Source: Anaerolineae bacterium (GTDB lineage: Bacteria; Chloroflexota; Anaerolineae; Aggregatilineales; Phototrophicaceae). From it: a stretch of 23,119 bases of DNA. The notes under the pieces were generated by a model that was not told the DNA's origin, made no database searches, and saw only the letters and a program-made list of their open reading frames with translations. Made by a program: the position numbers and the translations under genes. The DNA is taken from NCBI GenBank assembly GCA_030950085.1, contig JAUZRW010000118.1, positions 1 through 23,119 of the forward strand, given 5' to 3'. Positions 1 to 22,354 of this stretch are shown one piece after another; within the stretch, counting starts at the first letter, position 1, and each line of letters opens with the position of its first letter.

Positions 1-3000
1 ATGGCAAAAGACCCCAAAGACCGCTACGACACGGCAATGCAATTAGCCGATGCCTTATCAGAATTAGTCGATGCTAAAGAAGCCACATCCACACCGGAAA
101 ATATCCGTACTGTGGCTGTGCGAGCGATTAATCGTATTCAAGCCAAACGTGACAAAAAAGATATTGAAGGCTTACTGGGTAAGTTTGAAAAGACGCGCAG
201 TACGGGGATGCGTGCGGCAACGAGTTTTAGTGAAACGCAAGATATCGAAACGGAGGTTGTCGATACCCCATCTAAAGTAGAGATTGAAACGCCATCGGGC
301 AGTTTACGCTTACCGCTCATGATGGTGGGTGTTATTGCCGCTTTAATAATTGCAGTTGTATTTTTCTTTAATAATCAGAATCAACAGACTCAGGCAACAG
401 AAACGGCAGCCGCAGCCACAAGAGAACAAGTGACTATTGACGCTCAAACCGCGCTTGATGAAGCGGCGACGCAGGAGGCTCTTGATGCGACAACAGATGT
501 GATACAAGAGACAATCACAGCGCGAGGTGATGTTACAGATACACCGCAACCTACTTTCACCTCATCGCCTGTACCACCAACCCCTTCTACACCTTTAGCG
601 CAAGCACGAGAAAATTTAGAAGTGCGGCAAGGTCCCGGTCTCTCGTTTGATTTAGTCAGAAGTTTTGACCAAATATTTGCCGGTGAAGAGGTCGGTATTA
701 TCGGCATTAGCACCGGGGGCAGTTGGTATCAAGTCCGCCTCCCCGATGGCTCATCCGGCTGGATACCCAGTTCGCGCACTTTCGTCTTGGCAAGGGGACC
801 ATTAGATAGTATTGAGGTAGCAGTTGCTCCAACTTTGACAGCAACCAAAACACCAACAGCGACTCGCACAGCGACGAATACGCCGACTTCGACCAATACA
901 CCGACAGCGACTCGTACACCAACATCTACAAAGACCGATACGCCGACAAATACCTTTACACCAACGGCAACCGACACTTTCACACCAACAGCGACGAATA
1001 CGCCGACTGATACACCCACGAGAACACCGCGCCCAAGCAATACGCCAAGTGATACTCCTACATCAACATTGACCTTTACACCGCGTCCAAGCAATACACC
1101 CACCGCGACAGCGACGCATACCCCTACCGATACGCCAACATTTACAGCGACAGCAACTGATACGCCAACGGATACGCCGACACCCACACCGTCGCATACA
1201 TCCACACAGACAGCAACAGCAACGAACACGGCGACCAATACCGCGACCAACACGCCCACCGCGACCTTTACACCATCGAATACACCAACAGATACGCCGA
1301 CGGCAACGAACACAGCGACAGAGACAGCCACGAACACGTCAACCGCGACCTTTACACCATCACCCACGCCGACGGCAACCAATACGCCTACCGCGACGTT
1401 GACTCCGTCATTGACACCCACTGCAACAGCGACCAATACGCCGATGCCGTCACCAACACCTATTCCGGCGGGACGTTTGCCATATGTGATGGATTTTGAA
1501 GATGATTTCCCACTAGAAGGTTCAGATTATGACCCATCGGTCTGGCAGGTCGTAAACGAAGGGGGACAGCAGGTACTCATCGGGCAAGCGCGGTTAGAAC
1601 AACCTCTTGTTCTACTAGGACGAGAACAACCGGAATGGGCTGAAGCCAGTACCAGTGATTTTGTAGTCAGTTTCCGTTTCAATCTGGAAGCTGCCGAAGG
1701 GACACGCCTCGTCTTCCGCTTCAATGAAGGCGTTGGCTATAATGTGCTAGAAGTTGTACCGGGGCGGATTTTGCTCAAGCGAAATGTGGCGAGTGTCAAC
1801 CCCTTGACTGACCGCATCAATGAAATTATTCAGCAAAACCTGAGTGCCAATATCCAACTTGGACAGTGGAATCAAATTACATTGTGGGTCGAAGGGCAAC
1901 GTATTTTTGTCTACCTTAATGATGATTTACTCCTGCGGCATGTTGATACCATTTTACCGCAATTAGAGTCCGGTCAAATCTTACTACAAACAGGCAATGC
2001 TTTCCGTCCTGTTCGTTTTGATGATATCACTATCCAACGAGCAGAACCGGGCAGTGACCATTTCGAGACTGCCGATTTGCCCTCATCAACATGGCAACGC
2101 AGTGATAGCCGCAGAGTGACGATTGAACGCGATGCCGATAATAATCAGTATGTGCAAATGCAAACTGACGAGACAGCACAACCCATTATGGCACCTGTCC
2201 GCGATATTCAATTGGCGTGCCGCATCTGGAGTGTCGAAGGTGGTTATACGCTCTACCTGCGCGAAAGTGCCGGAGGTGGCGCGATTCGCATGGTGATGGA
2301 GGCTGGTGAAGCGACTGTGGCTTATGTGGATGCAGCAGGTGAATCTGTTTGGGAACAGCGCATTCGTAATTTCTATACCCGTCTGCAATGGCAAGATTTG
2401 AATATCCGCATTATTGAAGACAATATCGAAATCTATCTCGATGGCAACCTTGAATTTGAAGATACCCTCGACACACCGCCTGCTGGAGTCATTCGCTTTG
2501 AAACCGATTTTAACGATGTGCTGCGTTTTGATGATTGCTTAATCACACAATCTGCCAATGCCAGCGATGTTGGCGCAGCTTTTGCCTTTGACCTCATCCA
2601 ACAAGTCAATGACCGTACCTTCCGTTATCTGCGGAGTGACCTTGATGAGACATTCGATGATATTTTCCGTACCGATGTATGGTGGGTCGATGGTGAAAAT
2701 GCTGATGGGCAATTCCGCGATGATGCCGAAGCTGTCACCAATCAGAATTTCTTACGCATGGTACATGATGGCGAACCAACTTTCCGCCTCTTCCGCGATG
2801 ATGTCGGCGTATCAATATTTGGCGCTGGCACAGACACGAGCAATTTCAGCGATGCAACGGATTTGTTTGTCACGGTTGAAACGCGCTTCTTGCCCAATGA
2901 GGTTGGCGAGGCATGGCTAGGGATTCGCACGACAGAAACTCTGACAGGCACGAATATCAATGGCTACCGTCTCAGCTTGCGCCAAGACCGTGAAGGCAAT

Positions 3001-3276
3001 GTGACGGCGCTTGTCGATTATCGTAGTACATCGCAATTCGTGACCTACTTTGAAGGGGCAATCCCCGGTTCAGACATTGAGCCGCTACCAGAATGGATTA
3101 ATTTAAGCGTGGTGACATTCGAGGATAAACTAGCTTTCTTTGCTAATGGGCGTTTCCTAGTTTTTGTCGATAGTGCCGAGCAATTAGGTGGTACATTGGC
3201 ATTAGGCGTGGAAGAAGGGACAACAGCCGATTTCGACACCCTTATTATCCGCGATACAACCCCACACGGCGAATAA
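1..3276 (+). CDS. 5'-truncated CDS: C-terminal part of a membrane-spanning Ser/Thr protein kinase. The kinase-domain tail is followed by one TM helix, an SH3b-like domain, a Thr/Pro-rich linker and three tandem LamG/DUF1080-like (concanavalin-like jelly-roll) domains.
   Basis: The ORF is open at the window start. The first residues ([18 protein letters not shown]) match the conserved C-terminal end of Hanks-type kinase domains. A hydrophobic stretch [20 protein letters not shown] lies at nt ~310-370. [25 protein letters not shown] looks like a bacterial SH3 domain. [10 protein letters not shown]-type linker follows. Three repeated modules carry the motifs [13 protein letters not shown] / [20 protein letters not shown] / [14 protein letters not shown], typical of DUF1080/LamG-like beta-sandwiches. 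Domain names are inferred from memory of family motifs. Confidence 0.8.
835..1470 (+). repeat. Low-complexity coding repeat: Thr/Pro-rich linker (degenerate TPTxTxTPT units) inside the kinase gene.
   Basis: About 210 codons are dominated by ACN/CCN codons (T, P, A, N, S). The antisense frame yields an artefactual VGV-rich ORF at 729..1436. Confidence 0.85.
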
Positions 3277-3409: not shown

Positions 3410-4318
3410 TTAAGGTGTGACCATCGCAGCCAATTTACCCAAAGCCTCAACCAGCACATCAACTGCAATCGGTTTTGCAATGAACCAATCCACGCCGCGT
3501 TGATAGGCTTGTCCTTCACGATATCCTCCAGAATCGTTGCCCATAGCAATGATAGGAACAGTTTTTTCGGCATTTTGCTGGCGAACATATTGAACCAAGT
3601 CCAAGCCACTGCCTTCTTGCAACATTGCCTCGACAACGACACCATCAATTGCTTGGGTATCTATAGCGGTGATTGCCTCTTGCAATGTATGAACAACCAC
3701 AGGTTCAAATCCAGAGCGTTTACTGACAAAGCGCAATATCCGACACACATCTTTGTTATCATCTAAAATGAGCAATTGTTGACCTTGTGCGACACGAGGC
3801 AGAAATACATCATTGCCGAAACCGTGCATCGTTCTATCGTCTATGGAGGGCTTAACAACAAAATGAACTTGCAACTTGAGATTCCCTAGTTGCAAAATAT
3901 CACCTTCGCGCACACGGTAGGGACGGCGTATTTTAAGTTGTTGCCCGTTGATATAGGTGCCATTCGCACTGCCCATATCTTCAATAGTGACACGATTATC
4001 ACGAGCTATCATCAAAGCATGTTTACGAGAAACACCTAACTTTTGCCCCAGATGTTTGCCCAAATCGACTTGAGGATAAACTTGATGATTTTCATCTAAT
4101 CGCCCGAATAACAAAGTCTCACTTACCGGCGCACGAATAATATCCGGCGTACCAACAATCCGAAACTCAATTACCCAAGGGACAACCTCTTCATAGTCAC
4201 TTCCCTCACCTTGTCGTGCTTGTGCTTCTGCAAGGATATCTTCTTCTAAGTCTTCAATCGCGCCAGCTAGATTACGTGTGCGATTATCTAAATCATTGTC
4301 AAAATCTTGTTCTGGCAT
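3410..4318 (-). CDS. FHA-domain protein fused to a CheY-like receiver domain, with no output domain. The phospho-acceptor position appears to be Glu rather than Asp.
   Basis: The FHA signature GRLDEN...VSRKHALMI...DMGSANGTYINGQQL spans residues ~68-150. The receiver domain spans residues ~181-295: LLILDDNKD (acidic pair), GVVVE at the beta3 end, and AKP (the conserved Lys-Pro). It is convergent with the kinase gene, 133 nt away. Confidence 0.85.
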   Translation of the reverse strand: MPEQDFDNDLDNRTRNLAGAIEDLEEDILAEAQARQGEGSDYEEVVPWVIEFRIVGTPDIIRAPVSETLLFGRLDENHQVYPQVDLGKHLGQKLGVSRKHALMIARDNRVTIEDMGSANGTYINGQQLKIRRPYRVREGDILQLGNLKLQVHFVVKPSIDDRTMHGFGNDVFLPRVAQGQQLLILDDNKDVCRILRFVSKRSGFEPVVVHTLQEAITAIDTQAIDGVVVEAMLQEGSGLDLVQYVRQQNAEKTVPIIAMGNDSGGYREGQAYQRGVDWFIAKPIAVDVLVEALGKLAAMVTP

Positions 4319-4452
4319 TGTTGATTCCCTCTTTTAACTGCATAAATGTTGGGTGGTGATAGCAACAGCGAATCTGATATAACAAGGGTATCACTATTAT
4401 TGTGCAAGTCTAACTGATGAAAAAGTCCTAGTGACAGAATCACCCACGAACG

Positions 4453-4482
4453 CAAAAAGGGCGAAAGAAACATCCCTCGCCC
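4453..4482 (-). terminator. Putative intrinsic terminator downstream of the acyl-CoA dehydrogenase gene.
   Basis: Read on the minus strand: GGGCGA-(12 nt loop)-TCGCCC followed by TTTTTGCG, about 30 nt after the stop at 4511. The stem is only 6 bp, so this is moderate. Confidence 0.4.
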
Positions 4483-4510
4483 CCACTCGGCTCACTAAAG
4501 ATAGTATAGC

Positions 4511-5677
4511 CTATCGGAATAATTCGCGCACGACGACATTCCGCAAAATTTCGCTCGTCCCCTCATATATCTGGAAAACTTTACAATCACGCATCAGTTT
4601 TTCAACCGGATATTCGCGCATATAGCCATAACCGCCAAAAATTTGGACAGCGTCTACCGCCGCACGCATCGCTGCATCTGCGGCAAAGGTTTTTGCTGTA
4701 GCACTCAAGCGTGGGTTAGACATACCATGTTCAACCATCCATGCCGACTGCCAAACTAATAAACGGGCAGCTTCATAATCCATCGACATATTGGCGATTT
4801 TGTGGCTGACGGCTTGCCAATTATAAATCGGCTGACCAAAGGTTTCGCGTTCTTTGGCGTATTTGATGCTTTCTTCCATCGCACGTCGCAATAAACCGAC
4901 TGCCCCTGACCCGACGGCTGGACGGCTGAAATCAAAAACTTTCATACCAATCAAGAAACCTTTTCCTTCTTCACCGAGTAAGTTTTCTTCGGGAATCTCG
5001 ACATTCTCAAATGTGATTTGGGCGGTGTCTGAGGCGCGTTGCCCCATTTTATCGAACTTTTTGCTGATACTGAGACCGGGTGAGTCGCGGTCTACGATGA
5101 AGCATGACATACCGCGATGTCCGGCGGAGGGGTCTGTTTTGGCGAAAACCGTATAAAAATGGGCATAACTGGCATTGGTGATAAAGGTCTTGCTGCCATT
5201 GAGGATATATTTCGCCCCTTTCTTCTCGGCACGACTCTGAATCCCTGCAACATTTGAGCCAGCCGCCGGTTCTGTCATGCAATAAGAGACAAATTCACCA
5301 TTATCGACTAAGCGTTCACCGAGCCAGTATTTTTTCTGCGCTTCGGTGCCGCCAATGATAATCGGCAAATTACCCAATCCATTGGTCGTGATACTGGTGC
5401 TGATGCCTGTGCAACCATAGGCTAATTCTTCACCGATGATGACATCTTCAATCATGGATGCGCCAAGACCGCCATATTCTTCTGGGATGTTGGAATTGAC
5501 GAGACCAATTTCACGCGCCTTGTCAAAAATATCTTGTGGGAAAGTGGCATGTTCATCATATTCAGCAGCTTTGGGGATAATTTCATTTTGTGTGAATTCG
5601 CGTGCCATCTTTTGCAGCATAAGTTGTTCGTCAGTCAGTTCAAAACTCATACCAGCAGCATTCATCACATCAACCAT
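4511..5677 (-). CDS. Acyl-CoA dehydrogenase (short/medium-chain type).
   Basis: 388 aa. The N-terminus has FELTDEQLMLQ, then YGGLG, and the C-terminal motifs QIFGGYGY and YEGTSEI typical of ACADs. A strong SD (AGGAG) sits 6 nt upstream of the ATG at 5677. Confidence 0.9.
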   Translation of the reverse strand: MVDVMNAAGMSFELTDEQLMLQKMAREFTQNEIIPKAAEYDEHATFPQDIFDKAREIGLVNSNIPEEYGGLGASMIEDVIIGEELAYGCTGISTSITTNGLGNLPIIIGGTEAQKKYWLGERLVDNGEFVSYCMTEPAAGSNVAGIQSRAEKKGAKYILNGSKTFITNASYAHFYTVFAKTDPSAGHRGMSCFIVDRDSPGLSISKKFDKMGQRASDTAQITFENVEIPEENLLGEEGKGFLIGMKVFDFSRPAVGSGAVGLLRRAMEESIKYAKERETFGQPIYNWQAVSHKIANMSMDYEAARLLVWQSAWMVEHGMSNPRLSATAKTFAADAAMRAAVDAVQIFGGYGYMREYPVEKLMRDCKVFQIYEGTSEILRNVVVRELFR

Positions 5678-18541: not shown

Positions 18542-18614
18542 TGGGAAGTAGCTCAACCGGCAGAGCAGGTGCCTTTGGAGCACAAGGTTGTAGGTTCAAG
18601 TCCTACCTTCCCAG
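18542..18614 (+). tRNA. tRNA-Gln (anticodon TTG).
   Basis: Acceptor stem UGGGAAG/CUUCCCA with the U1-A72 pair and G73 discriminator characteristic of bacterial tRNA-Gln. D arm GCUC-AACCGGCA-GAGC. Anticodon loop CUUUGGA. T arm GUAGG-UUCAAGU-CCUAC. There is one G-A mismatch at the top of the anticodon stem. Confidence 0.8.
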
Positions 18615-18826: not shown

Positions 18827-19852
18827 CTACGATTCATCTGTGTTATCGGTCAGGTTGCGCGGCATCGGGCGTTCGGGAATGTCTTTGAGCAAGCCTCCAT
18901 GTCCCATAGCGACCAAATCCGCACGGCTGAGACGTTCTCCTGCCAGTAAACGCGGCAATATCCAGTCGATGACATTGGTTTTCGGCGATTTGACACATCC
19001 CGGCGCACCAACCACTGGCACATCACCGAGATAGCCCATCATCAACAGTGTACCGGGGTCAACAGGAACGCCATGCTGTGTGATACTCCCCCCTGCCAAT
19101 AATAACGCCGATGGCACAATGTCTTCACGGTCAATGATGGCACTCATGCTCGCTATTAGAATTAAATCACAATCCGAATAATCTTGTATCGCATGAGCAA
19201 TCGCTGTAGCATCATGGGCAACATAAAGCGGTTCGAGTAAGTCACTACCGAGAAAGTCAATTCGATTTTTCACAGGCTCATGAAAACCATTGATAAGCCG
19301 TTCTTTGACCGATTCATGACCGGAGATAATTAGGGCGACTTTGCCTTTTTTAAGGGGACGCACAACCACAATCGAATTTGCTTCGGCAGCGATACACTCC
19401 ACATCTTTGATTCGCGCATCCGGCACAGCAAATGGCACAATTTTTACCAGCGTCACCAAGTCGCCAATATCAACTAGCGTATGTTCATGCAGCGTCGCTA
19501 TCGTGATGCCATCGTAAATCGTGTTCAGGCGTTCCAACACAGGCACATTAACACGCAATACACCGCGTTCACTCGCCATCAGATTCGCTCGTCCGACACC
19601 GGGCGCTTTTACATTGATTCCGTGTCCGGCAAGCGCCTCTCCTACACGACGAGCCGCCTCATTTTCATGAACATCGTGCGTGTCGATTTGTGCCACAATC
19701 ACCATTTCGTGCTGATGGTCACGCAGGGTTTCGATATCGTCACGCGATAAGATGCGCCCCTTATTGAACAACAGCCGTCCATTGTTGTTGAAAATCTTAT
19801 GTGCGAGAATCGTCCCCTCAGCCTCATCTATGGAAATTGCACCGAACCTCAT
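18827..19852 (-). CDS. Molybdopterin-binding (MoCF_biosynth/MogA-MoeA-fold) domain protein, XdhC-associated.
   Basis: 341 aa. The C-terminal half (KVALIISGHES...DLILIASMSAII...GVPVDPGTLLMMGYLGDVPVVGAPG) resembles the molybdopterin-binding fold. The 4-nt ATGA overlap with the upstream xdhC-like gene implies an operon. Confidence 0.75.
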   Translation of the reverse strand: MRFGAISIDEAEGTILAHKIFNNNGRLLFNKGRILSRDDIETLRDHQHEMVIVAQIDTHDVHENEAARRVGEALAGHGINVKAPGVGRANLMASERGVLRVNVPVLERLNTIYDGITIATLHEHTLVDIGDLVTLVKIVPFAVPDARIKDVECIAAEANSIVVVRPLKKGKVALIISGHESVKERLINGFHEPVKNRIDFLGSDLLEPLYVAHDATAIAHAIQDYSDCDLILIASMSAIIDREDIVPSALLLAGGSITQHGVPVDPGTLLMMGYLGDVPVVGAPGCVKSPKTNVIDWILPRLLAGERLSRADLVAMGHGGLLKDIPERPMPRNLTDNTDES

Positions 19853-22042: not shown

Positions 22043-22354
22043 ATGAGTTATACATTAATCATGACATGGGATATCAAGCCCGATATGGAAGCAGATTACT
22101 ATGAGTTTGTCATTCGAGAGTGGGTGCCTGTCACGAATAAACTCGGCTTGCAAATGGTTGCGGCATGGTATACGCAATACAGCCTCGATAAGACTGTACC
22201 TATTATTCGCGCTGAGGGGATTACGGAAGATTTAAGCACGATGCGCGGCATCCTCAATAGTGCGGATTGGGAAGATATACACATTAAATTGATGGATTAC
22301 GTGGAAAATTATTCGCATAAAGTGGTTGAAACCACAGGTGATTTTCGCATGTGA
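22043..22354 (+). CDS. Small hypothetical protein (103 aa), possibly a ferredoxin-like alpha+beta fold.
   Basis: An ATG preceded by AAGGA (5 nt). It is conserved-looking and non-repetitive, but I recognise no family with confidence. Confidence 0.55.
   Translation: MSYTLIMTWDIKPDMEADYYEFVIREWVPVTNKLGLQMVAAWYTQYSLDKTVPIIRAEGITEDLSTMRGILNSADWEDIHIKLMDYVENYSHKVVETTGDFRM

What the first reader, a model, noticed from the sequence alone, without database searches (positions are those of the whole stretch)
3410..4318. FHA-receiver fusion with Glu at the predicted phospho-acceptor site, paired with a convergent Ser/Thr kinase
Counting from the acidic pair LILDD (D186/D187) with CheY spacing (D13 to D57 is 44; D57 to K109 is 52) places Glu230 (codon 3629-3631, GVVVE) at the phospho-Asp position and Lys282 (AKP) at the K109 position. 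The Thr87-equivalent is Gly/Met. This predicts a pseudo-receiver, with a phosphomimetic Glu, that cannot be phosphorylated by a histidine kinase.

The N-terminal FHA domain is a phospho-Thr reader, and the only kinase nearby is the Hanks-type Ser/Thr kinase whose gene ends 133 nt away on the other strand. Together these suggest a kinase-to-FHA signalling pair in which the receiver domain serves as a constitutively active-like output or dimerisation module.
Basis: inference. Interest (0 to 1): 0.5.

Follow-up and report, generated by a model that had tools for sequence, protein, structure and literature searches.

The report
FHA protein with Glu-type pseudo-receiver domain
This Anaerolineae gene encodes a phospho-threonine-reading FHA domain fused to a receiver domain that has glutamate in place of its phosphorylatable aspartate, a real and conserved but fairly ordinary "pseudo-receiver"; the Ser/Thr kinase gene next to it is not a conserved partner.

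Summary
The 302-aa product of window 3410-4318 (-) has an FHA domain and a Response_reg domain. Sequence alignments to PhoB and CheY, and an AlphaFold model, place E230 at the phospho-acceptor, D186/D187 at the acidic pair, G260 at the Thr position and K282 at the Lys position.

Among 123 non-redundant orthologues, 77 have Glu and 41 keep Asp with a complete receiver active site. The Glu forms show relaxed conservation at D+4, T, T+1 and K-3, so phosphotransfer chemistry has probably been lost.

The kinase-pair idea is not supported. The left ORF is the 3' part of a receptor Ser/Thr kinase, but a kinase lies within 6 kb in only 2 of 60 related genome loci. Homologues of that kinase are not next to an FHA-REC gene. 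The conserved neighbours are an acyl-CoA dehydrogenase upstream and the rpsL-rpsG-fusA-tuf operon downstream, which has its own promoter.

One feature is new. The disordered N-terminal tail carries a conserved T-x-x-L motif (T14-L17) in 114 of 123 members, against 28 ± 4.5 in shuffles. This fits a GarA/OdhI/DgcB-like self-tail phospho-switch.

Glu is the commonest substitution in aspartate-less receivers, so interest is modest.

The parts
3410..4318 (-). Whole FHA / pseudo-receiver gene (302 aa; stop codon at 3410-3412)
   Evidence: ORF list. Pfam finds FHA and Response_reg. It is 100% identical to P0001, an NCBI 'FHA domain-containing protein' from an Anaerolineae MAG.
4184..4318 (-). N-terminal acidic tail (aa 1-45), mostly low-confidence in the model, with a predicted acidic helix at aa 17-36
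   Evidence: AF2 pLDDT is below 50 for residues 1-25 and 31-41, and DSSP on the model assigns a helix to 17-36.
4268..4279 (-). Conserved T14-R-N-L17 motif, a candidate Ser/Thr-kinase site and FHA ligand (pT with a hydrophobic +3 residue)
   Evidence: The motif T-[RTGK]-[HRYK]-L occurs in 114 of 123 tails, against a shuffle mean of 28.2 (sd 4.5, max 44). Leu is at +3 in 105 of 114. Coordinates were checked.
3848..4183 (-). FHA domain (aa 46-157) with G72-R73, S97-R-K-H100 and N119-G-T intact
   Evidence: Pfam. These residues are invariant in the family. Foldseek matches FhaA, DgcB and other FHA structures.
3779..3847 (-). Inter-domain linker (aa 158-180)
   Evidence: AF2 secondary structure and pLDDT.
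3419..3778 (-). Pseudo-receiver (aspartate-less receiver) domain (aa 181-300)
   Evidence: Pfam Response_reg, 51.9 bits. PDB alignments. Foldseek target-normalised TM about 0.9 to receiver domains.
3758..3763 (-). Acidic pair D186-D187 (the DD positions), retained
3629..3631 (-). E230 at the phospho-acceptor position
   Evidence: It aligns to PhoB D53 and the CheY1 acceptor and sits at the end of beta3. Among orthologues the column is E in 77, D in 41, N in 3 and A in 1.
3539..3541 (-). G260 at the Thr/Ser switch position (T87 of CheY)
   Evidence: It is P255 + 5, and it aligns to PhoB T83.
3473..3475 (-). K282 (the K109 position), followed by P283
1..3276 (+). 3' part of a receptor Ser/Thr kinase gene: kinase-domain tail, juxtamembrane segment, TM helix, SH3_3, a Thr/Pro-rich linker and LamG/3-keto-disaccharide-hydrolase-like modules. 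It is a neighbour, not a conserved partner.
   Evidence: Pfam. Colinear alignment from residue 1 to residue 248 of the Pkinase proteins P0110 and P0111. Lack of conserved linkage is shown.
4511..5677 (-). Acyl-CoA dehydrogenase gene, the conserved same-strand upstream neighbour of the family
   Evidence: ORF. ACAD lies directly upstream in L001, L005, L007, L008 and many genome loci.
4396..4484 (-). Terminator-like hairpin after the ACAD gene (4484-4457) and a promoter-like site (4423-4396) ahead of the FHA-REC gene. Consensus matches only.

Best explanation
The gene encodes a stand-alone adaptor protein of Ser/Thr-kinase signalling, built from an FHA domain and an aspartate-less (Glu-type) pseudo-receiver.

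It belongs to one orthologous family of Anaerolineae (Aggregatilineales / Phototrophicales-like lineages). In the crude tree the Asp-type members, which keep the complete receiver active site, lie on the deep side. That places the FHA-plus-true-receiver form as the likely ancestor, but the root state is unresolved by parsimony. In the large clade that contains this gene the acceptor Asp became Glu, and the positions that serve phosphotransfer then relaxed. Histidine-kinase input has therefore been lost (shown by sequence statistics; loss of phosphorylation itself is inferred).

The remaining input is phospho-threonine read by the intact FHA domain. The most likely ligand is the protein's own N-terminal tail, at the conserved T14-x-x-L17 motif, after phosphorylation by one of the genome's Hanks kinases. 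Binding would be in cis (as in GarA/OdhI) or between subunits (as proposed for DgcB and Chk2). This step is inferred.

The pseudo-receiver would then act as a protein-protein interaction or dimerisation module, with its accessibility or oligomeric state set by tail-FHA binding (inferred).

The adjacent kinase gene is a chance neighbour rather than a dedicated partner.
For: - Domain calls and acceptor assignment.
- Family-wide state of the acceptor: E 77, D 41, N 3, A 1 of 123.
- A crude NJ tree puts 73 of the 77 Glu forms in one region containing the query, with the Asp forms on the other, deeper side, plus two small independent Glu pairs. Fitch parsimony gives a minimum of 7 changes over all states.
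- Asp-type members keep receiver hallmarks: D+4 Pro 38/41, T = Ser 37/41, T+1 = Gly 37/41, K-3 Phe 32/41.
- Glu-type members relax them: D+4 Pro 21/77, T = Ser/Thr 50/77, T+1 = Ala/Gly 19/77, K-3 Phe/Tyr 38/77. The acidic pair and Lys stay conserved. This matches the published contrast between pseudo-receivers and receivers (PMC12632262).
- The FHA pThr-binding residues are invariant in 123 of 123.
- The tail motif T-x-x-L is in 114 of 123 against 28 ± 4.5 in shuffles, at a fixed distance of 23-35 residues before the FHA domain. A second R-[AV]-T-G-P-L-D motif is present in most Asp-type members.
- Self-tail FHA precedents: DgcB T14/V17, GarA and OdhI (PMC6733907). The DgcB FHA-phosphopeptide structure 6hc1 is among the Foldseek hits.
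- The kinase is not a conserved neighbour.
- No output domain exists beyond REC.
Against: - No experimental data exist for any member.
- AF2 does not dock the tail on the FHA domain; residues 1-25 have pLDDT below 50. This is expected for an unphosphorylated tail but gives no support.
- In the query's own subclade the second tail motif is missing, replaced by an acidic helix.
- The tree is a crude NJ tree, its parsimony root set is {D, E}, and its members are related, so neither the direction nor the number of independent Asp-to-Glu changes is settled.
- Two of about 62 loci (the window and L010) do have a convergent kinase abutting the gene, so a local functional link cannot be excluded.
- The DD pair and Lys remain strongly conserved in Glu forms, so the pocket still does something, such as metal or ligand binding.
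Confidence: 0.55

Rival explanations
1. First reader's model. The convergent receptor Ser/Thr kinase is the dedicated partner. Its autophosphorylated juxtamembrane region recruits the FHA domain, and the Glu-locked receiver acts as a constitutively active-like output.
For: - The two genes end 133 nt apart.
- The ORF is a genuine kinase fragment.
- Its juxtamembrane segment contains T-x-x-[IV] sites: T37VAV, T79QDI, T84EVV.
- A second locus (L010) also has a convergent kinase abutting the gene.
- From general knowledge, FHA proteins commonly dock on kinase juxtamembrane pThr sites, as in mycobacterial PknB with FhaA or GarA.
Against: - The adjacency is not conserved: 2 of 60 genome loci have any Pkinase within 6 kb.
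- None is found in the annotated metagenome loci L001-L008.
- The L010 kinase is unrelated to the window's kinase outside the catalytic domain.
- Homologues of the window's kinase lie elsewhere.
- The genes are convergent and so not co-transcribed.
- 'Constitutively active' cannot be read from a Glu alone (PMC4395418).
Confidence: 0.12
2. The family is functionally tied to the translation apparatus. It sits at the head of the rpsL-rpsG-fusA-tuf operon because its FHA domain reads phosphorylated EF-Tu, EF-G or ribosomal proteins, or because it regulates the operon.
For: - rpsL lies within 1 kb downstream, on the same strand, in 10 of 15 Glu-type and 15 of 33 Asp-type genome loci.
- The same holds in four metagenome contexts carrying Glu-type members (L001, L002, L003, L005).
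- Linkage persists down to about 30% protein identity.
- From general knowledge, EF-Tu and EF-G are substrates of bacterial Hanks kinases (PrkC, PknB).
Against: - A strong sigma-70-like promoter separates the gene from rpsL: TTGACA-17-TATGAT with TG in L001, and TTGACG-17-TATCAT in L019. The genes are therefore separate transcription units.
- Linkage is absent in the query's own subclade (the window and L008) and in about half of the Asp-type loci.
- In the 28 loci without rpsL directly downstream, the downstream genes are heterogeneous.
- Conserved order next to ribosomal operons is often just inherited.
- The protein has no DNA- or RNA-binding domain.
Confidence: 0.12
3. It is still a working receiver, phosphorylated on another Asp (for example D225) or on Glu230 itself, or modified at Glu230 by methylation.
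For: The DD pair, Lys and Lys+1 Pro remain conserved in Glu forms. Maule et al. note that Glu can in principle be phosphorylated or methylated (PMC4395418).
Against: - D225 aligns to the non-catalytic Asp at D-5, at the start of beta3.
- That column is not conserved: D 50, with S, H, N, Q, E and A in the other 15 of 65.
- The T, T+1 and D+4 positions needed for phosphotransfer are relaxed in Glu forms, and the query has Gly at T.
- No bacterial signalling by Glu phosphorylation is known (PMC4395418).
Confidence: 0.05

Closest known systems
Aspartate-less receiver (ALR) / pseudo-receiver domains, Glu subclass (e.g. Chlamydia ChxR; class described by Maule et al. 2015, PMC4395418, and Bourret et al. 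2025, PMC12632262)
   Same: It has the receiver fold and a PF00072 match, with Glu at the acceptor. Glu is the commonest ALR substitution (26%). The first acidic residue and the Lys are retained. Conservation is relaxed at D+4, T, T+1 and K-3, as reported for pseudo-receivers. Chloroflexi are noted as ALR-rich.
   Different: It is fused to an N-terminal FHA domain and has no DNA-binding or enzymatic output. Neither paper mentions FHA. The second acidic residue is also retained, which is unusual for ALRs (29% acidic in Maule et al.).
Fungal Rim15p and plant pseudo-response regulators (PRRs)
   Same: These are orthologous or paralogous sets in which one lineage keeps a true receiver and another carries Glu at the acceptor, and which are regulated by Ser/Thr phosphorylation elsewhere in the protein (PMC12632262).
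   Different: They are eukaryotic, with different partner domains (a kinase, or CCT), and share no FHA domain. The resemblance is one of evolutionary pattern, not homology beyond the REC fold.
Self-tail FHA regulators: mycobacterial GarA, corynebacterial OdhI, Bdellovibrio DgcB
   Same: Each has a disordered N-terminal tail with a conserved Thr and a hydrophobic +3 residue ahead of a canonical FHA domain. DgcB uses T14/V17, and this protein has T14/L17. The FHA fold matches these structures.
   Different: The partner module is a pseudo-receiver, not a bare FHA (GarA/OdhI) or a GGDEF domain (DgcB). The NCBIfam OdhI model scores 27 bits against a cut-off of 200, so it is not a member of that family. 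Tail phosphorylation and binding are untested here.
Kinase-linked FHA proteins of Actinobacteria (pknB-fhaA/fhaB cluster, pknH-embR, pknF-Rv1747)
   Different: In those systems the linkage is conserved and usually co-directional. Here it is convergent and found in only 2 of 60 related genome loci besides the window.

Membership tests
Response-regulator receiver domain (PF00072), catalytically competent | (beta-alpha)5 fold and an HMM match above the gathering score | tested here: met
   51.9 bits against a cut-off of 30.2, covering profile positions 2-110 of 111. AF2 gives a five-strand, five-helix layout. Foldseek target-normalised TM is about 0.9 to PhoB, DivK, RR468 and others.
Response-regulator receiver domain (PF00072), catalytically competent | Asp at the phospho-acceptor position (end of beta3) | tested here: not met
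   E230 aligns to PhoB D53 and the CheY1 acceptor. Glu is conserved in 77 of 123 orthologues.
Response-regulator receiver domain (PF00072), catalytically competent | Thr/Ser at the switch position (end of beta4) | tested here: not met
   G260 aligns to PhoB T83.
Response-regulator receiver domain (PF00072), catalytically competent | Acidic pair after beta1 and Lys at the end of beta5 | tested here: met
   D186/D187 and K282-P283.
Aspartate-less receiver / pseudo-receiver (Maule 2015; Bourret 2025) | Recognised as a receiver by HMM but lacking the acceptor Asp | tested here: met
   The definition comes from PMC4395418 and PMC12632262.
Aspartate-less receiver / pseudo-receiver (Maule 2015; Bourret 2025) | No phosphorylation by a histidine kinase or small-molecule phosphodonor | not testable with these tools
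   This needs biochemistry. Indirect support comes from relaxed D+4, T, T+1 and K-3 positions in Glu forms compared with Asp forms.
FHA domain (PF00498), pThr-binding competent | HMM match and the conserved Gly-Arg, Ser-x-x-His and Asn residues | tested here: met
   54.6 bits against a cut-off of 20.7. G72, R73, S97, H100 and N119 are invariant, and R/S/H/N are present in 123 of 123.
Self-tail FHA switch (GarA/OdhI/DgcB type) | Conserved Thr with a hydrophobic +3 residue in a disordered N-terminal tail | tested here: met
   T14-R-N-L17. The motif is in 114 of 123 tails against a shuffle mean of 28 ± 4.5. The tail has pLDDT below 50.
Self-tail FHA switch (GarA/OdhI/DgcB type) | The tail Thr is phosphorylated by a Hanks kinase and then binds the protein's own FHA domain | not testable with these tools
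   AF2 leaves the tail undocked, which is uninformative for a phospho-dependent contact.
Self-tail FHA switch (GarA/OdhI/DgcB type) | Sequence membership in the OdhI/GarA equivalog | tested here: not met
   NF041660 OdhI scores 27.1 bits against a cut-off of 200. The similarity is at the FHA-domain level only.
Dedicated Ser/Thr kinase - FHA gene pair | Conserved genomic linkage of the FHA gene with the kinase gene | tested here: not met
   A Pkinase lies within 6 kb in 2 of 60 genome loci. The kinase homologues P0110 and P0111 are not beside an FHA-REC gene. Downstream genes are heterogeneous where rpsL is not adjacent.
Classical two-component pair (histidine kinase + response regulator operon) | A histidine kinase gene adjacent to the receiver gene | tested here: not met
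   No HisKA or HATPase_c domain is in the window or in the annotated loci L001-L008. HK-like hits (EnvZ tblastn or motif scan) occur in only 4 of 60 genome loci (L034, L036, L050, L065), and only the L050 one is directly adjacent. DNA to the left of the window is unknown because the contig ends.

The most novel reading that the evidence does not exclude
The FHA-REC family may be a natural Asp/Glu 'switch series' of one signalling adaptor. In this reading, the Asp-type orthologues integrate histidine-kinase (Asp~P) and Hanks-kinase (pThr tail) inputs on one small protein. The Glu-type clade, including this gene, would be locked in one receiver state and controlled only by tail phosphorylation. 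The target would be the translation machinery encoded directly downstream in most genomes (EF-Tu, EF-G, S12, S7).
Probability: 0.1. Interest if true: 0.65.

Novelty: new variant of a known kind. Interest (0 to 1): 0.35.

Why it matters
How bacterial pseudo-receivers are switched on and off is an acknowledged open question (PMC12632262). This family offers a clean natural comparison. The orthologues share an architecture and mostly the same gene neighbourhood, yet differ at the acceptor (Asp or Glu), and they show the expected relaxation of phosphotransfer positions after the change. At least one cultured Glu-type organism is available, Phototrophicus methaneseepsis.

The conserved T-x-x-L tail gives a concrete, testable candidate for the regulatory input that replaces Asp phosphorylation. 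It would also extend the GarA/OdhI/DgcB self-tail mechanism to a receiver-domain partner.

On the other hand, Glu-type aspartate-less receivers are common, and the kinase pairing that made the finding attractive does not hold up.

Tried and rejected
- A word-indexed homologue search with the first 290 aa of the kinase fragment gave one SH3-only hit and no kinase.
- phmmer of the 54-aa kinase tail against the PDB gave nothing useful. The kinase identity was settled instead through homologues of the C-terminal 621 aa and pairwise BLASTP.
- D225 as an alternative acceptor was rejected from the alignment, the model and the poor conservation of that column.
- A pseudogene or sequencing error was rejected. 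The ORF is intact, with homologues at 66-87% identity in other samples that carry the same Glu.
- Orthology between the L010 convergent kinase and the window's kinase was rejected. Only the catalytic-domain tail aligns, and the rest is nSTAND1-WD40.
- Co-transcription with rpsL in relatives is unlikely, because strong promoter-like sites lie in the intergenic region.
- A census of downstream genes in the 28 loci lacking an adjacent rpsL found no recurrent partner.
- Foldseek against afdb50 was unavailable.
- Rfam found only two tRNAs in the window.
- Literature searches for any described FHA-receiver protein found none.
Full report
**What is there**

Window 3410-4318 (-) is an intact 302-aa ORF. 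It is identical to an NCBI protein annotated 'FHA domain-containing protein' from an Anaerolineae MAG, and the window is that protein's whole 23,119-bp contig.

Pfam finds an FHA domain at residues 93-145 (54.6 bits against a cut-off of 20.7). It also finds a Response_reg domain at residues 183-293, covering profile positions 2-110 of 111 (51.9 bits against 30.2). NCBIfam gives only domain-level similarity to PhoB-type receivers and to FHA proteins. No equivalog comes anywhere near its cut-off.

An AlphaFold2 model built on 65 homologues is confident (mean pLDDT 85.7, pTM 0.79). It shows:
- a low-confidence tail (aa 1-45; residues 1-25 and 31-41 have pLDDT below 50) containing a helix at 17-36;
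- a beta-sandwich at about 46-157;
- a linker;
- a five-strand, five-helix domain at 181-300.

Foldseek matches the two halves separately. The FHA half matches FhaA 3poa, the DgcB FHA-phosphopeptide complex 6hc1, and others. The receiver half matches receiver domains with target-normalised TM about 0.9.

**Check of the observation**

The gap-free phmmer alignment to E. coli PhoB (query 180-295 against PhoB 3-118) gives these correspondences:
- D186/D187 on E9/D10;
- E230 on D53;
- G260 on T83;
- K282 on K105.

The H. pylori CheY1 alignment also puts E230 on the acceptor. Beta3 in the model is 226-230, so E230 is at its C-terminal end, where the acceptor belongs. D225 is the common, non-catalytic Asp at the start of beta3, and that column varies in the family.

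**Is the neighbour a kinase?**

Only the last ~20 residues of a kinase domain are on the contig, and Pfam does not call Pkinase. Direct searches with the tail failed.

Homologues of the C-terminal 621 aa include three proteins with Pkinase + SH3_3 + 3keto-disac_hyd-like architecture. BLASTP aligns residue 1 of the window ORF colinearly with residue 248 of two of them. The alignment runs through the juxtamembrane region, the TM helix, SH3 and the C-terminal modules.

The ORF is therefore the 3' part of a receptor Ser/Thr kinase gene that lacks about 247 N-terminal residues.

**The family**

Sixty-five full-length homologues share the FHA-REC architecture. Sixty of them have Glu at the acceptor, and the five most distant have Asp.

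A scan of one genome per species found 60 further loci. All but one are titled as Anaerolineae, Aggregatilineales, Phototrophicales or other Chloroflexota, or just 'bacterium'. The exception is a MAG titled Pleurocapsa sp. (L065).

In 123 non-redundant orthologues the acceptor column is Glu 77, Asp 41, Asn 3 and Ala 1. The FHA Arg, Ser, His and Asn residues are invariant in all 123.

| Position | Asp-type (n = 41) | Glu-type (n = 77) |
|---|---|---|
| D+4 = Pro | 38 | 21 |
| T = Ser (Asp-type) or Ser/Thr (Glu-type) | 37 | 50 |
| T+1 = Gly (Asp-type) or Ala/Gly (Glu-type) | 37 | 19 |
| K-3 = Phe (Asp-type) or Phe/Tyr (Glu-type) | 32 | 38 |
| Lys | 41 | 75 |

The Asp-type members keep every receiver hallmark. 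The Glu-type members are relaxed at exactly the positions that serve phosphotransfer and Y-T coupling, while the acidic pair, Lys and Lys+1 Pro persist. This is the published receiver versus pseudo-receiver contrast (PMC12632262, section read). It argues that phosphorylation really was lost after the Asp-to-Glu change.

A crude NJ tree puts 73 of the 77 Glu forms in one region containing the query, with the Asp forms on the other, deeper side. Two small Glu pairs nest among the Asp forms. The parsimony root set is {D, E}, so the direction of change is suggested by the topology, not proved.

A profile search of 1.84 billion representatives shows that FHA-REC, and a related FHA-REC-FHA architecture, are widespread. 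Most of those carry a canonical Asp.

**Gene neighbourhood**

The conserved neighbours are two:
- an acyl-CoA dehydrogenase directly upstream on the same strand (present in the window at 4511-5677);
- the rpsL-rpsG-fusA-tuf-S10 operon directly downstream on the same strand.

This arrangement is seen in L001, L002, L003 and L005. rpsL lies within 1 kb downstream in 10 of 15 Glu-type and 15 of 33 Asp-type genome loci that have enough flank.

Strong promoter-like sites lie between the FHA-REC gene and rpsL, so the operon is a separate transcription unit. These are TTGACA-17-TATGAT with an upstream TG in L001, and TTGACG-17-TATCAT in L019. In the window, a terminator-like hairpin follows the dehydrogenase gene and a weak promoter-like site precedes the FHA-REC gene.

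The evidence against a conserved kinase partner is as follows:
- A Pkinase lies within 6 kb in only 2 of 60 genome loci.
- The one that also abuts convergently (L010) is an unrelated 1845-aa Pkinase-nSTAND1-WD40 protein.
- The closest relative with context (76% identity) has a FAD-SLDH gene downstream.
- The kinase's own homologues are not next to an FHA-REC gene. In MAG BC1.4 the two genes are on different contigs (L034).

Histidine-kinase-like ORFs are rare near the family and absent from the window.

The kinase pairing is therefore not supported as a conserved system. It cannot be excluded as a local association.

The disordered N-terminal tail carries a conserved motif, T-[RTGK]-[HRYK]-L. 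In the query this is T14-R-N-L17 (window 4268-4279).

- The motif occurs in 114 of 123 tails, against 28.2 ± 4.5 (max 44) in composition-preserving shuffles.
- Leu is at +3 in 105 of 114.
- The Thr sits 23-35 residues before the FHA domain (alignments).
- Most Asp-type members also have a second motif, R-[AV]-T-G-P-L-D. In the query's clade it is replaced by an acidic helix.

A Thr with a hydrophobic +3 residue in an N-terminal tail ahead of a canonical FHA domain is the arrangement used by GarA, OdhI and Bdellovibrio DgcB. In DgcB the residues are T14 and V17, and tail phosphorylation gates activity (PMC6733907).

**Most likely mechanism**

Shown:
- an FHA domain with intact pThr-binding residues;
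- a receiver fold with Glu at the acceptor and Gly at the switch position;
- no output domain;
- a conserved T-x-x-L tail;
- orphan status with respect to both kinase types.

Inferred:
- The protein no longer receives phosphoryl groups from a histidine kinase.
- A Hanks kinase, not necessarily the neighbour, phosphorylates T14.
- pT14 binds the FHA domain in cis or between subunits.
- This binding changes the availability or oligomeric state of the pseudo-receiver, which acts as a protein-interaction module.

Whether Glu makes the domain 'active-like' is unknown. Published D-to-E substitutions activate some receivers but not CheY, PhoB or Spo0A alone, and ChxR does not depend on its Glu (PMC4395418; PMC12632262).

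A link to translation factors, suggested by the rpsL linkage, is possible but weakly supported.

**Comparison with what is known, and novelty**

Glu is the most frequent substitution at the acceptor of aspartate-less receivers (26%), and Chloroflexi are ALR-rich (PMC4395418). The receiver half is therefore an ordinary member of a known class.

The pattern of one lineage keeping a true receiver while another carries Glu parallels fungal Rim15p (PMC12632262).

The FHA fusion with a conserved self-tail motif is not described in the papers searched. The two pseudo-receiver surveys do not mention FHA.

I rate it a new variant of a known kind, of modest interest. Its value is as a natural Asp/Glu comparison set with a concrete candidate for the replacement input.

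Noticed in passing
window 14975-16498 (-): This 507-aa protein matches SPFH/Band_7 (1.9e-7), the major-vault-protein shoulder domain (8.4e-7) and, below its gathering score, a vault repeat domain (3.7e-5). It looks like a vault-protein-like protein in an Anaerolineae MAG.
   Followed up: no
window 1-3276 (+), with the antisense ORF 729-1436 (-): The kinase fragment carries a linker of about 200 aa rich in Thr and Pro ('TPTxT' repeats, roughly aa 275-480) between its SH3_3 domain and its LamG-like modules. The 235-aa antisense 'VGV' ORF is a by-product of this repeat, not a gene.
   Followed up: partly
L010 6001-6810 and 6802-12336 (-): An FHA-REC homologue with Ala at the acceptor is abutted by a convergent 1845-aa Pkinase-nSTAND1-WD40 gene. 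This is a second, independent case of a kinase gene ending at the 3' end of an FHA-REC gene.
   Followed up: partly
L050 6001-6780 and 6916-8748 (+): An FHA-REC homologue with Asn at the acceptor has a histidine-kinase-like ORF directly downstream (EnvZ tblastn 2.9e-12, with H-box and G2-box matches). It is the only locus with an adjacent HK-like gene.
   Followed up: no
P0118, P0123, P0132, P0137, P0141 (profile-search hits): A related FHA-REC-FHA architecture of about 400-550 aa exists, with a canonical Asp acceptor and a second C-terminal FHA domain.
   Followed up: partly
L001 11074-11102; L019 6896-6924: Near-consensus extended -10 sigma-70-like promoters lie in the intergenic region between the FHA-REC gene and rpsL. 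These are probably the str-operon promoters of these Chloroflexota.
   Followed up: no
L007 10938-11885 (+): In an Asp-type locus the gene directly downstream, 65 nt away on the same strand, encodes a 315-aa SH3_3 protein. The window's kinase carries the same domain type extracellularly. This may be coincidence.
   Followed up: no
window 10527-11513 (-), 12086-13015 (+), 18827-19852 (-), 22043-22354 (+): These four ORFs of 103-341 aa have no Pfam match at E <= 0.001. Two tRNA genes lie at 11645-11728 and 18542-18614.
   Followed up: no
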